In this document: positions 13,001 through 16,000 of the stretch, piece by piece
Numbering within the stretch: position 1 is the first letter of the stretch
Layout of the letters: every line of letters begins with the position of its first letter
Assembly (NCBI GenBank): GCA_035546635.1
Contig: DASZWJ010000034.1
Span: 159,548 to 223,547 of the forward strand
Direction of reading: 5' to 3'
DNA: 64,000 nucleotides
DNA from: Gammaproteobacteria bacterium
GTDB lineage: Bacteria; Pseudomonadota; Gammaproteobacteria; JAURND01
Program-made: the position numbers

Positions 13001-16000
13001 GATTCACCGGCGTGTCTAGTAGCGGATGAGCAGGATATGAGTATCCATCTGCAGAATTTATTGCGCGATGCTGGTCAGAATTTCCCAGCCAGCAAGCCTA
13101 TTTTTGAGATCAACCCAGATCATCCGTTAGTTATCAAAATGAAAGATGAAGCGGATGAGGCGCGGTTTGCGGACTGGACATGGGTGTTGTTTGAGCAAGC
13201 GCAACTGGCACAAGGTTCGGCGCTGGAAGATCCGGCTAATTTTGTTAGGCGCTTGAATGCGTTGTTGGTGGAGGCTAAGTAGGGAGGTGAATTTCACCCA
13301 CTTTGAAAAAGGGGGTCGAAGGCCGCAAGGCTTGAGGGGGGATTTAAAGAGTTTTGGGTGCGCAATATGGTGTGTTAGTACTCACCGGCTCTTTAAATCC
13401 CCCCGCAGGCCTTACGGCCTACGACCCCCTTTTTCAAAGTGGGTGAGCCTCCCCAACGGCCTACGACTCACTTTTCAAAGTGAGTGAGATTCTGCCGCAG
13501 TGCTAAGCCACCTAGAGAGAAGGAAAATTAACCAGCATATTTGTTACCATCTACTTCATGACACCCTTACCAACAGTTATCTGCCTTATGGGCCCAACCG
13601 CCAGCGGTAAAACCGCTCTAGCGATTGAATTAGCCCAACAACTCCCTTGCGAAATCATCAGCGTAGATTCCGCTATGGTCTACCGTGGCATGGATATTGG
13701 TACCGCCAAACCCACCCCCGCCGAGCGCGCAAAAGCCCCCCATCGTTTGCTGGATATTTTAGATCCGGCAGAACCTTACTCAGCTGGGCAATTCTGCAAT
13801 GATGCATTGCGTGAAATTGCTGAAATCACCGCTCAGGGGCGCATTCCATTGCTAGTAGGCGGTACAATGCTTTACTTCCGCGCTCTGCAGCAGGGGTTAT
13901 CGAATTTACCTTCAGCCGACAAAATCGTGCGTGAACGCCTGGCCTTACAGGCAGCGGCATCCGGTTGGCCTGAAATGCATCAGTATCTAGAACAATTTGA
14001 CCCCGAAGCAGCGCGACGCATCAGCCCCAATGACAGCCAACGCATCGCGCGGGCATTGGAAGTGCTGGAGCTGACCGGACGTCCTTATAGCGAAGTTTGC
14101 GCTGAAACTAAGCCAGGTAGCCCGGCCTATCACTTTATTAATATAGGCTTGATACCGGAAGACCGCTCCTGGTTACATGCCCGGATTGAACAGCGGTTTA
14201 AAGCCATGCTGCAGGCAGGCTTTATTGAGGAAGTGGCTGAGCTAAGGCGTCAAGAAGGCTTGCATGCTGATTTACCCTCAATGCGGGCAGTGGGCTATCG
14301 CCAAGTATGGGCTTATCTGGCAGGGGAACTCCCTAGACTTGAGATGGAAAAAAATGGTATAATTGCCACAAACGGATTAGCTAAAAGACAATTAACTTGG
14401 TTGCGTAGTTGGCCTGACTTATCAGTAATTTCCTGTGAAGATAAGTCGCCTGTGATGAAGTTTGTCGAGCTTTGGAAAAGCCGGAGTGATCAGCTATTGA
14501 ATGTCACGTTGTCTTAAAATTATCTAAAAGAACTTTTATAATTTTGGAGCGAGACAAATGTCACTACGCAAGCGTGAAAGCAAAAAAACTGAAGAAGAAT
14601 ATTATGTAGCCCTCTCTGTACCAACCAATTATTTATTTATCCAAGATCCCTATCAAGAACTACAAGATCGCCTCAATGCGCAATTGCTACAGGGCAATTG
14701 TGTTCTCTTTAGAGACTTTGAAACAGCCTCAACCCCAATTGTTGAAGATGACGAAGAGGACAGAGTCGCGCAAATGATGCGTGAGCATGAGGAACAGGGT
14801 ACCCAAATATTGGCGGATCTAGCAAAAAAGGGTGAACCTTCTGCGCAAGGCTGGTTGAGAAGTATAACGCCCGTAGAGCCCGAGCCAGTTGTTAGAAAAA
14901 AACATGTTGAGAGTGACCGGTTGGTTATTGGAGTGAATCACCGAGGATATCAAGAATTAGATCGGGCTGCATCTGCAAGGGAAAGTGTTGATAGCGGCTT
15001 TTTGCATTATATAACATCAGCTCATTATTTTCATCGCGAGAATCCCAAGCCGCATAATTTGGATTGGGATATGGATGCGCTATTATTTACAGCTTTGCTT
15101 CAGTTACGTAATCTCTTCTTGCATCTGTCGGAAAGTAAGACGCAGCAATCCACGACTTTTTCATCGGGTTTTGTCGATCATATGGCTTCATTAGAGCAAG
15201 ATCGGATAAGACGTCAGCGAGCAGAACAGGATGAGTTTGAAAAAAGTGAGCATAGGGTTTCTACATGGCAGCGAGGGGCTTCGGAAGCAAAGGCAAAAGT
15301 AAATCCATTGGAAGAATATCAGGGTAAGGGTTTGATATTTCCACAGTTTCAAGATGATGTCGGTAAGTCGTTTTCCTGGGATAATGATGATGCATGGGAT
15401 GATCCTATTCTCATGGGTACTGAGATAGTGAATCCAGTCTGTGTGGTAACGTTCGCTCCAAACAAACCTGAGTTGAAAACATTGCGTGTTTATGATCAGA
15501 CTTCATTTGATAAATGTAAAAAGAATGGTGTCTTTGTAGACCCTCATAAAGGGGAGGTTGATAAGATATTTCCTCTAGATAAAGCTAGCATTAAAAAATA
15601 TGTAGACAGTGAGAAGGCTCATGCTAAAGCTCTTGCCGATGCAAAGAAATCTACCACAACTGCTGAAGTGAAGTCGTCAGCATCCTCTTCGGCTCCAGCA
15701 AATCCACCTGTTGCTGATACGAATGCAGTTTCTCTTGAGCCGAAAGCTAATATTCCCGATGAGTTTAAAACTTTTGCTGTACCTCATTATGAAGGTATGG
15801 ATCTTGCAGAAGAATTCTCTTTGGGAGAGGATCCTATATCGTTAGATGAATTTGAGAATCCTATCTGTATTGTAGATCGTGAATTGAAGCAGATACACAT
15901 TCATGAGAAAGCTCAATATTTAAAAATGATTGAGGATCGGAAGGCAAATGGTAAAAATACTTTTCTGTGTACGAATACACGAGAACTACCAGTGACTTCT

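What the first reader, a model, noticed from the sequence alone, without database searches (positions are those of the whole stretch)
13294..13488. Family A: dispersed roughly 150-bp composite palindromic element with hairpin-forming termini (5 copies in 64 kb)
Copies lie at 13294-13488, 23249-23398, 35206-35349 and 61751-61879, with a half copy at 18184-18252. They share the termini tcacccCCTTTGAAAAAGGGGG ... CCCCCTTTTTCAAAGGGGGTGA, which are inverted repeats that are each a self-complementary hairpin. Nested inside are the second IR GGGGATTTAAAGAG/CTCTTTAAATCCCC and a third GC-rich hairpin (gcaggccttacggcctac). A1 and A2 share an identical 44-bp core, while A3 and A4 have different cores. 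This points to a MITE-like family with a variable cargo. All copies sit directly after stop codons of + and - strand genes, so they probably act as bidirectional terminators. I cannot place the family among named repeat families.
Basis: seen in the sequence. Interest (0 to 1): 0.7.

Follow-up and report, generated by a model that had tools for sequence, protein, structure and literature searches.

The report
Hairpin-ended miniature mobile element family
The repeats are real: small, gene-less mobile DNA elements whose hairpin ends match those of an IS66-family insertion sequence and belong to the old, unexplained "BoxC / triplex-motif" repeat class, which here turns out to sit next to DUF559 nuclease genes in many bacteria.

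Summary
There are four full copies and one half copy, and the terminal motif occurs 10 times against 0.04 expected. Each copy is two inverted end modules of about 60 bp around an unrelated core. A module is tip, hairpin H1 (CCCCCTTT-GAA-AAAGGGGG), an optional GC hairpin H2, then GGGGGGATTT.

Copy A4 (61749-61886) has GTAAC/GTTAC tips and a perfect 8-bp target duplication (TATTTATC). This is the signature of ISBst12-group IS66-family transposition; its tip matches ISDge4's over 11 nt. An IS66-family element in a metagenome (L133) has these same modules as its ends. A1-A3 lack tips and duplications. Relatives have other elements, or none, at the same sites.

The module fits the grammar of E. coli BoxC/PIT/"triplex motif" repeats, a known class with no known mobility agent. 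The motif occurs across phyla, mostly without IS66 tips.

Unexpectedly, DUF559 (Vsr-like) nuclease genes are bracketed by such modules in five motif loci. Triplex-type motifs also sit beside 9 of 11 further DUF559 loci, including E. coli ycjD (12-fold local enrichment).

The terminator idea is untested and doubtful. Verdict: a MITE-form variant of a known class, plus a new testable lead on its mobility.

The parts
13287..13446 (.). Copy A1, a complete palindromic element. Order: degenerate tip, H1 (13297-13315), H2, GGGGGGATTTAAAGAG, 37-nt core, CTCTTTAAATCCCCCC, H2, H1 (13425-13443), TGA.
   Evidence: arms 58 nt, 93% complementary; dG -117 kcal/mol. No recognisable outer tip or target duplication.
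13447..13495 (+). Diverged 42-nt tandem duplication of the right end of A1 (half of H2 plus an H1-like hairpin CTCACTTTTCAAAGTGAG). It ends in a weak tip-like GTGAGATTCTGC.
   Evidence: (family D4, spacing 42).
18196..18254 (+). Solo right-end module (half copy): degenerate C-block, H2 (CGTAGGCCTTGCGGTCTACG), degenerate H1, and the tip GGTGAGTGGTTAC.
   Evidence: (GTAACCACTCACC on the minus strand at 18242-18254).
23242..23403 (.). Copy A2, a complete element with H2 on both sides. H1 lies at 23252-23270 and 23377-23395. Its right end carries the last five codons and the stop codon (23386-23388) of pncB on the minus strand.
   Evidence: triplex-type match 23365-23396; pncB ends ...ASYPL*.
35206..35349 (.). 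Copy A3. The left end has no H2 (H1-GTATA-GGGGGGATTT, a triplex-type module); the right end has H2. It ends 28 nt before the eno start codon.
   Evidence: match 35209-35242.
61749..61886 (.). Copy A4, the intact element: GTAAC tip, H1 (61755-61773), ATTAA, GGGGGATTT, unrelated core, AAATCCCCC, H2, H1 (61857-61875), TGAGCAGTTAC tip.
   Evidence: The right tip read inward, GTAACTGCTCA, equals the ISDge4 inverted repeat over 11 nt (PMC12898284). It is close to the terminal repeats of L128, L130, L131 and L133.
61741..61748 (+). Left copy of the 8-bp target-site duplication TATTTATC of A4.
61887..61894 (+). Right copy of the 8-bp target-site duplication TATTTATC of A4. Together with the last base of the element it forms the stop codon (TAG) of ORF 61886-62863 on the minus strand.
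   Evidence: The predicted empty site would give TAA at the same codon.

Best explanation
Family A is a family of small non-autonomous mobile elements (MITE form).

Structure. Each copy is two inverted end modules of about 60-70 bp around a short unrelated core. A module is: tip, hairpin H1 (CCCCCTTT-GAA-AAAGGGGG), an optional GC-rich hairpin H2, and a G6ATTT block.

Shown:
- The same module, joined to the tip GTAACAGCTCA, forms both ends of an IS66-family (ISBst12-group) insertion sequence found in a metagenome.
- Copy A4 has these tips and a perfect 8-bp target duplication.
- Related genomes lack the family at the same sites.

Inferred:
- A transposase of that group, encoded elsewhere in the genome, binds the ends, cuts at the GTAAC tips and inserts the element into AT-rich 8-bp targets.
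- Insertions survive mainly in the short spacers after genes.
- A1-A3 and the half copy either are older copies whose tips and duplications have decayed or been rearranged, or spread by a second route.

Class. The end module (C-run stem, loop, G-run stem, loop or hairpin, mirror G-run) is a sequence variant of the BoxC/PIT/'intrastrand triplex motif' class. That class is widespread, intergenic, and has no known mobility agent.

Effects on neighbouring genes (a new C-terminus and stop for pncB; possible effects on transcription) are by-products, not the reason the elements exist.
For: 1. Repeat family far above chance; long-hairpin folds.
2. A4 has GTAAC...GTTAC tips and the 8-bp duplication TATTTATC. 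Among 150 candidate end pairs only A4 and the IS in L096 show GTAA/TTAC tips plus a duplication.
3. ISDge4, an ISBst12-group element seen to transpose experimentally, has the inverted repeat GTAACTGCTCAGCA and an 8-bp direct repeat (PMC12898284).
4. IS66-family transposases (PF03050) 67-90% identical to one another have terminal repeats GTAACAGCTCAGCCCC, GTAATAGCTCACCCCC and similar.
5. L133 has GTAACAGCTCA-H1-TCG-H2-GGGGGGATTT at both ends, around a DUF559 gene and the transposase gene. Its ends align column by column with both halves of A1-A4.
6. L132 is a solo module with the same tip. L096 is an IS with the 8-bp duplication AAAAAAAT and a module inside each 165-bp terminal repeat.
7. A second gene-less element in the window, 32395-32568, has GTAACTATTCACC tips and the 8-bp duplication GTTAAATC. 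This transposition chemistry has therefore acted in this genome.
8. In syntenic regions of relatives, L123 (HflX 85% identical) has no H1 in 21 kb and a different palindromic element at htpG|miaA and purA|pncB. L125 and L127 have 40- and 15-bp htpG|miaA spacers.
9. A triplex-motif finder hits A2-R, A3-L and A4-L. The class is described in PMC4666352.
Against: - Only one of four full copies has tips and a duplication. A1-A3 keep 61-84% identity inside yet show no outer tip, which is odd for simple decay.
- In about 236 distinct module ends from other genomes only T-R-A is conserved after H1, with no trace of the IS66 tip. Most of the wider family was therefore probably never moved by this transposase.
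- L133 itself has no target duplication.
- Closely related transposases have plain 16-bp ends without the module, so the module is an add-on to the IS, not a fixed part of it.
- No transposase gene lies in the window, and the rest of the genome could not be searched.
- No same-species empty site was found.
Confidence: 0.68

Rival explanations
1. The modules are the cis partner of DUF559 (Vsr-like PD-(D/E)XK) nucleases, as REP sequences are of RAYT. Units of the form 'module - DUF559 - inverted module' would be the autonomous form. Family A and the bulk of tip-less copies would be their gene-less derivatives, spread by nuclease-initiated copying. IS66 tips (A4, L133) would be secondary hybrids.
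For: - A DUF559 gene sits between inverted modules in L036, L076, L026 and L133, with modules on one side in L064: five unrelated loci out of about 122.
- A 61%-identical DUF559 (P0285) is flanked by co-varying variants, CCTCCC instead of CCCCC in both the hairpin and the G-block.
- Nine of 11 further DUF559 loci have triplex-type motifs beside the gene: ten from cultured bacteria plus that same P0285 locus.
- In 40-kb controls almost all motifs lie next to the gene: Deinococcus 2/2, E. coli ycjD 2/2, Sphingomonas 6/7, Pseudanabaena 3/4. Overall 25 in 9.6 kb against 52 in 232 kb.
- The catalytic E-x-D-G..H motif is kept in all five.
- DUF559 genes are 14-fold enriched among genes bracketed by inverted repeats (PMC9881135).
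- Most module ends lack IS66 tips.
Against: - Association is not mobilisation. DUF559 could be cargo of cassettes bounded by the modules, or the modules could insert preferentially near it.
- No DUF559 gene lies in the window.
- No insertion signature for such a route was found.
- No biochemical data are available.
- A4 clearly carries the IS66-type signature.
Confidence: 0.3
2. The copies are fixed host structures whose job is to terminate transcription in both directions.
For: - All copies lie just after stop codons, one of them between convergent genes.
- In the long-hairpin form a G5/C5 stem base is followed by TTTTT on either strand.
- H2 followed by CCCCCTTTTT is picked up by the terminator scan at two sites.
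Against: - Tips, a target duplication and absence in relatives show insertion, not a fixed design.
- The T run starts five or more bases after H2.
- A3 lies 28 nt before the eno start, downstream of pyrG and kdsA on the same strand.
- The scan count does not exceed shuffles: 13 against 10.6.
- The related E. coli PIT elements showed no terminator activity (PMC4666352).
- The same modules occur upstream of gene starts in Xanthomonadales.
Confidence: 0.12
3. They are REP/REPIN elements mobilised by a RAYT (Y1 tyrosine transposase).
For: - Pairs of inverted hairpin units form a long hairpin.
- Solo units and both relative orders occur, as in BIMEs.
- They are intergenic.
Against: - No GTAG-type head.
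- No Y1 transposase in any of more than 120 loci.
- The motif is shared across phyla, unlike lineage-specific REPs.
- A4 has a target duplication, which HUH enzymes do not make.
Confidence: 0.03
4. They encode a structured small RNA or a cis-regulatory RNA.
For: - Very stable folds.
- Hairpin H2 is preserved through more than 70 different sequences.
Against: - No Rfam family. Below threshold there are only generic long-hairpin microRNA models.
- The element is symmetric on both strands.
- Copies sit in unrelated contexts.
- Cores are not conserved.
Confidence: 0.03

Closest known systems
BoxC / PIT (potential intrastrand triplex) elements / 'TMECO' triplex motif of E. coli and more than 260 genomes (Holder et al. 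2015, PMC4666352; earlier Bachellier et al. and Hoyne/Maher, as cited there)
   Same: - Same grammar: pyrimidine-run stem, short loop, complementary purine-run stem, short Y-T-R loop, mirror purine run.
- Strictly intergenic, many copies, present in distant phyla.
- Loci differ between close relatives.
- No adjacent transposase as a rule.
- Family A ends without H2 (A3-L, A4-L) and the right end of A2 are picked up by a triplex-motif finder.
   Different: - The sequence differs: CCCCCTTT/AAAGGGGG/GGGGGATTT, not CCCTCNCCC/GGGNGAGGG.
- Most modules carry a 12-60 nt hairpin (H2) in place of the 3-nt second loop.
- Here the modules are paired as the inverted ends of a 130-160 bp element, with the hairpin outward.
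- One copy has transposon tips and a target duplication.
- Triplex formation was not tested.
ISBst12 group of the IS66 family (for example ISDge4; PMC12898284) and MITEs as deletion derivatives of insertion sequences
   Same: - Tips GTAAC(T/A)GCTCA.
- 8-bp target duplication.
- Single-ORF DDE transposase (PF03050 + DUF6444) in the full-length relatives.
- Family A shares only the ends with the IS, as MITEs do.
   Different: - Ordinary members have 14-16 bp inverted repeats. Here the ends carry an extra structured module of about 55 bp, which close relatives lack.
- Three of four copies have no tips.
- The closest plasmid-borne IS66-family transposases are under 36% identical to the transposase clade.
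- In my searches I found no paper describing an IS66-family MITE.
REP / REPIN elements with their RAYT transposase
   Same: - Works alike in outline: short hairpin units, often as inverted doublets forming a long hairpin.
- Dispersed in intergenic DNA.
- A single protein-coding gene is found bracketed by the units (here DUF559).
   Different: - The bracketed gene is a Vsr-like PD-(D/E)XK nuclease, not an HUH/Y1 transposase.
- No GTAG head.
- The motif is shared across phyla.
Correia (Neisseria) and ERIC (enterobacteria) elements (from my own knowledge)
   Same: - 100-160 bp palindromic intergenic elements with inverted ends.
- Fold into long hairpins in RNA.
- No cognate transposase known.
- Can alter neighbouring gene expression.
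   Different: - No sequence similarity.
- Correia elements duplicate TA; here the duplication is 8 bp.
- Neither has G/C-run triplex-type modules.

Membership tests
MITE derived from / mobilised by an ISBst12-group (IS66-family) IS | Terminal inverted repeats matching those of the IS group (GTAA... tips) | tested here: inconclusive
   Met for A4 (both ends) and for the half copy (one end). Not met for A1-A3, which keep only the inner (C/T)TCA before the C-run.
MITE derived from / mobilised by an ISBst12-group (IS66-family) IS | 8-bp target-site duplication | tested here: inconclusive
   Perfect for A4 (TATTTATC). None found for A1-A3.
MITE derived from / mobilised by an ISBst12-group (IS66-family) IS | Small, with no transposase gene of its own | tested here: met
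   Copies are 138-162 bp. No homologue of the L096 IS66-family transposase or of the DUF559 proteins anywhere in the window.
MITE derived from / mobilised by an ISBst12-group (IS66-family) IS | A full-length IS with the same ends exists | tested here: met
   L133: tip-H1-H2-G6ATTT at both ends around a PF03050 transposase gene. It comes from another organism.
MITE derived from / mobilised by an ISBst12-group (IS66-family) IS | A source of transposase in the same genome | not testable with these tools
   Only the 64-kb window and about 20 kb more of the contig could be read.
MITE derived from / mobilised by an ISBst12-group (IS66-family) IS | Presence/absence polymorphism at orthologous sites | tested here: inconclusive
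   Absent from syntenic sites in three related species. The predicted A4 empty site was not found in metagenomes. No same-species comparison was possible.
BoxC / PIT / intrastrand triplex motif class | Three consecutive blocks: pyrimidine stem, complementary purine stem, mirror purine block, with short loops | tested here: met
   My finder hits A2-R, A3-L and A4-L. In ends with H2 the second loop is a 20-nt hairpin, outside the published 1-6 nt loop limit (PMC4666352).
BoxC / PIT / intrastrand triplex motif class | TMECO consensus CCCTCNCCC N3-6 GGGNGAGGG N3 GGGNGAGGG | tested here: not met
   Family A has CCCCCTTT / AAAGGGGG / GGGGGATTT. It is a different sequence family of the same class, not TMECO itself.
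BoxC / PIT / intrastrand triplex motif class | The single strand actually forms a triplex | not testable with these tools
   Needs CD, NMR or footprinting as in PMC4666352.
REP / REPIN with RAYT | Conserved GTAG-type head plus a 20-40 nt palindrome, with a Y1 transposase gene flanked by copies | tested here: not met
   No such head. Clustering the ORFs of the motif loci gave no recurrent mobility gene, only orthologous neighbours and ABC ATPases; this was not a direct Y1 search.
Intrinsic (bidirectional) terminator | GC-rich stem directly followed by a U tract; RNA 3' ends there | tested here: inconclusive
   The pattern is present only with a 5-nt gap or in the 130-nt long-hairpin form. No expression data.
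Any Rfam RNA family | Score at or above the family's gathering threshold | tested here: not met
   Only a tRNA in the window and in 18 loci. Sub-threshold hits are generic microRNA-precursor hairpins.

The most novel reading that the evidence does not exclude
BoxC/PIT/triplex-motif repeats, family A among them, are not orphan structural DNA. They would be the non-autonomous partners of a selfish or domesticated DUF559 (Vsr-like) nuclease gene that is itself bracketed by them: a REP/RAYT-like system built on a PD-(D/E)XK nicking enzyme. The Y-T-R-G-G loop between the two G-runs (often CTAGG, which resembles the Vsr site CTWGG) would be the place of cleavage. IS66-family elements have repeatedly picked up these modules at their ends.
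Probability: 0.3. Interest if true: 0.85.

Novelty: new variant of a known kind. Interest (0 to 1): 0.62.

Why it matters
BoxC/PIT/triplex-motif repeats have been catalogued since the 1990s. They occur in hundreds of genomes and mark unstable loci. The main survey states that no mobility function was ever found near them (PMC4666352).

This window gives a member of that class in transposon form, with tips, a target duplication and a matching insertion sequence. That shows at least one way such modules move.

The follow-up also turned up a consistent, cross-phylum neighbour: the uncharacterised DUF559 nuclease, including E. coli YcjD. The origin and spread of these repeats can therefore be tested with simple genetics and biochemistry in E. 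coli.

For annotation, the elements rewrite gene ends (the pncB C-terminus and stop) and fill the spacers of conserved operons such as miaA-hfq-hflX-purA and pyrG-kdsA-eno.

Tried and rejected
- Rfam at gathering and at E-value thresholds: no family.
- Full-text search for the motif: no paper.
- Recurrent proteins near 120 motif loci: only orthologous neighbours and ABC ATPases, no transposase.
- Target duplications around about 150 end pairs: only tandem-array artefacts besides A4 and L096.
- IS66 tip after H1 in the wider family: not enriched, 5 GTTA[CT] in 236 tails against about 9 expected.
- Predicted empty site of A4 in metagenomes: none.
- Tip+H1 pattern in metagenomes: one locus only.
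- Similarity of the cores to IS internal sequence: none above shuffles.
- Element or close transposase in the plasmid collection: no DNA match, transposases under 36% identical.
- Viral contigs: one motif hit and no close DUF559 relative.
- Reading the conserved TRA after H1 as a stop codon of a conserved peptide: rejected, because the distance to the C-block varies out of frame.
- attC, Tn3-type, IS200/IS605 and REP models: considered from memory and dropped for lack of their defining motifs.
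Full report
**1. Observation**

The terminal motif occurs 10 times in 64 kb against 0.04 expected. The repeat finder recovers the family, including 58-nt arms that are 93% complementary in A1. Each copy folds as one long hairpin on either strand, dG -64 to -117 kcal/mol, z -8 to -16.

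The anatomy is modular. It runs: an outer T(C/T)A; hairpin H1 (CCCCCTTT-GAA-AAAGGGGG); then either a 4-7 nt linker or TCG plus a GC-rich hairpin H2; then GGGGGGATTTAAAGAG; a 30-40 nt core; and the mirror image. A1 and A2 are 84% identical, with a 48-nt identical run. The other pairs are 61-72% identical. The extra tail of A1 is a 42-nt tandem duplication of its right end.

The window comes from contig CAYLQX010000027.1 of assembly GCA_964386165.1, about 43% G+C. The flanking genes are housekeeping genes:
- htpG | A1 | miaA
- hfq | half copy | hflX
- purA | A2 | pncB (convergent)
- kdsA | A3 | eno
- malic enzyme | A4 | an unnamed ORF

**2. One copy carries a transposition signature**

A4 is really 61749-61886. 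It reads GTAAC-T-H1 ... H1-TGAGCA-GTTAC and is flanked by a perfect 8-bp direct repeat, TATTTATC. Among 150 candidate end pairs in all fetched DNA, only A4 and an insertion sequence in L096 combine GTAA/TTAC tips with a flanking duplication.

The half copy ends in GGTGAGTGGTTAC.

A second, unrelated gene-less element in the window (32395-32568) has GTAACTATTCACC tips and the 8-bp duplication GTTAAATC. This chemistry has therefore operated in this genome.

ISDge4 is an ISBst12-group member of the IS66 family that has been seen to transpose. Its inverted repeat is GTAACTGCTCAGCA and it makes an 8-bp direct repeat (PMC12898284). The inward-read right tip of A4, GTAACTGCTCA, is identical to it over 11 nt.

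**3. A full-length relative with the same ends**

The taxa are very diverse: Thiotrichaceae, Xanthomonadales, Coxiellaceae, Francisellaceae, Cellvibrio, Glaesserella, Burkholderiales, delta-proteobacteria, Nitrospinota, Ignavibacteria and Bacteroidota.

In L096 the motif lies inside the roughly 165-bp terminal repeats of an IS. That IS has GTAACAGCTCAGCCCC tips, the 8-bp duplication AAAAAAAT and an IS66-family transposase (PF03050 plus DUF6444).

Relatives of that transposase (67-90% identical) have tips GTAACAGCTCAGCCCC, GTAATAGCTCACCCCC and the like.

In L133 the tip runs straight into the module at both ends, GTAACAGCTCA-CCCCCTTTGAAAAAGGGGG-TCG-H2-GGGGGGATTT, around a DUF559 gene and the transposase gene. 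These ends align column by column with both halves of A1-A4. A metagenome contig holds a solo module with the same tip.

**4. Mobility versus fixed structure**

The closest relative found (HflX 85% identical; L123) has no H1 motif in 21 syntenic kb. It does carry a different palindromic element at both htpG|miaA and purA|pncB. Two further relatives have htpG|miaA spacers of 40 and 15 bp. This argues for independent insertions into the same short spacers. A same-species empty site could not be found.

**5. What does not fit a simple MITE story**

- A1-A3 have no outer tips or duplications.
- In about 236 distinct module ends from other genomes only T-R-A is conserved after H1. There is no residue of the IS66 tip.
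- Transposases 81-83% identical to the L096 one have plain 16-bp ends.
- L133 has no duplication.
- Modules occur solo (60), in the order seen here (28), or in the opposite order with the hairpins facing each other (33, mostly Xanthomonadales). In the last case they sit at orthologous sites across genera.
- H2 is a hairpin in more than 70 different sequences.

The module is therefore older and wider than its link with this IS.

**6. Comparison with the known**

The module follows the grammar of E. coli BoxC, also called PIT elements or the TMECO triplex motif: a C-run stem, a loop, a G-run stem, a 3-nt loop and a mirror G-run (PMC4666352). A finder written to that grammar hits A2-R, A3-L and A4-L, and also other repeat families of the window.

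That literature reports the following:
- strictly intergenic location;
- occurrence in more than 260 genomes;
- unstable loci between strains;
- no promoter or terminator activity in earlier tests;
- no mobility genes nearby.

Family A is not TMECO in sequence. Most of its modules carry H2 in place of the short second loop.

**7. An unexpected neighbour**

The ORF between the left module and the transposase gene in L133 is a DUF559 protein (PF04480, Vsr-like fold; nearest solved structure 3HRL).

Homologues lie between inverted modules in L036, L076 and L026. In L064 the modules lie on one side of the gene only. The stop codon often overlaps TAAATCCCCCC.

A 61%-identical homologue from another organism is flanked by co-varying variants, CCTCCC... 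with GGAGGGATTT.

Triplex-type motifs sit beside the gene in 9 of 11 DUF559 loci examined: ten from cultured bacteria plus that same metagenomic locus. The positive ones are N. gonorrhoeae, Photobacterium, E. coli ycjD, Azospirillum, Deinococcus, Synechocystis, Sphingomonas, Pseudanabaena and the metagenomic locus.

In 40-kb controls the motifs are almost confined to the gene's flanks: Deinococcus 2/2, E. coli 2/2, Sphingomonas 6/7, Pseudanabaena 3/4. Overall there are 25 in 9.6 kb against 52 in 232 kb.

The gene sits inside conserved operons, paaD|paaZ and yqeY|dnaG.

Two papers fit this. DUF559 genes are 14-fold enriched among genes bracketed by inverted repeats (PMC9881135). L. pneumophila has three copies of a transposase-plus-DUF559 segment (PMC12308824). 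I found no paper linking DUF559 with these repeats.

This is association, not proof of mobilisation.

**8. Function**

- The terminator idea rests on position and on a G5/C5 stem base followed by T5. The scan gives no excess over shuffles, and A3 lies 28 nt before the eno start.
- A2 supplies the last five codons and the stop of pncB. A4 recreates the stop of its neighbour.
- I commit to mobile DNA as the primary nature of the family. Effects on transcription are possible by-products.

**9. Verdict**

The family is a MITE-form variant of the BoxC/triplex-motif class with ISBst12-type ends. The most interesting outcome is the testable DUF559 lead.

Noticed in passing
window 32395-32568 (and 836-867): A second gene-less element. 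It has ISBst12-like tips GTAACTATTCACC...GCTGAATAGTTAC, a perfect 8-bp duplication GTTAAATC and an internal 57-nt palindrome. It lies between tilS and pyrG and overlaps the called pyrG start. A solo left end of the same family lies at 836-867, near the tRNA gene at 1031-1103.
   Followed up: partly
window 11161-11259, 17546-17699, 24843-24902, 43317-43422, 48689-48745: Other dispersed repeats built on GGGAGAAGG/CCTTCTCCC-type hairpins. Several are hit by the triplex-motif finder, so the genome holds several sequence families of the BoxC-like class.
   Followed up: partly
window 37010-37167: A 65-nt-arm inverted repeat (78% complementary) after ftsB. It is a different palindromic element and was not examined.
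   Followed up: no
L123 6370-6545, 14760-14925 and 9770-9975: The closest relative carries a different triplex-type palindromic element (CCTTCCTAACCTTCCCCCGCAAGCGGGGG...) at the very two spacers that hold A1 and A2 here. It also has a 200-bp palindrome between hfq and hflX.
   Followed up: partly
L036 68-655; L076 5569-6035; L026 4749-5195; L133 64-2138; L141 587-1158; L151-L166: DUF559 (Vsr-like) nuclease genes are bracketed by H1/BoxC-type modules in many phyla. E. coli ycjD is one: its stop codon lies in the loop of a BoxC hairpin. The loop between the two G-runs is usually Y-T-R followed by GG (CTAGG, TTAGG, CTGGG), which resembles the Vsr site CTWGG.
   Followed up: partly
L004, L007, L098, L103, L115; L022, L050, L090, L101, L104, L106; L031, L061, L074: In Xanthomonadales the modules occur in the opposite order, with the hairpins facing each other across 35-150 nt. 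They are kept at orthologous positions across genera, in one group directly upstream of a signal-peptide gene.
   Followed up: partly
L026 4100-4760; L152 880-1336; L164; L166: Tandem arrays of whole composite units (about 177 bp in Cellvibrio, about 148 bp in Photobacterium; long arrays in N. gonorrhoeae). In Cellvibrio the array ends, and in Photobacterium it starts, at a DUF559 gene.
   Followed up: no
L007, L045, L074, L077, L101 (contigs CALRWS02...): A MAG labelled Chitinophaga pinensis has loci orthologous, at the DNA level, to Lysobacter/Thermomonas loci. The label or the binning looks wrong.
   Followed up: no
L036 1-70 and 655-710: The module-DUF559-module unit lies at the centre of a further palindrome (GCGAAGGG | unit | CCCTTCGC, with another H1-like pair outside). 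This suggests insertion into the tip of an existing hairpin.
   Followed up: no
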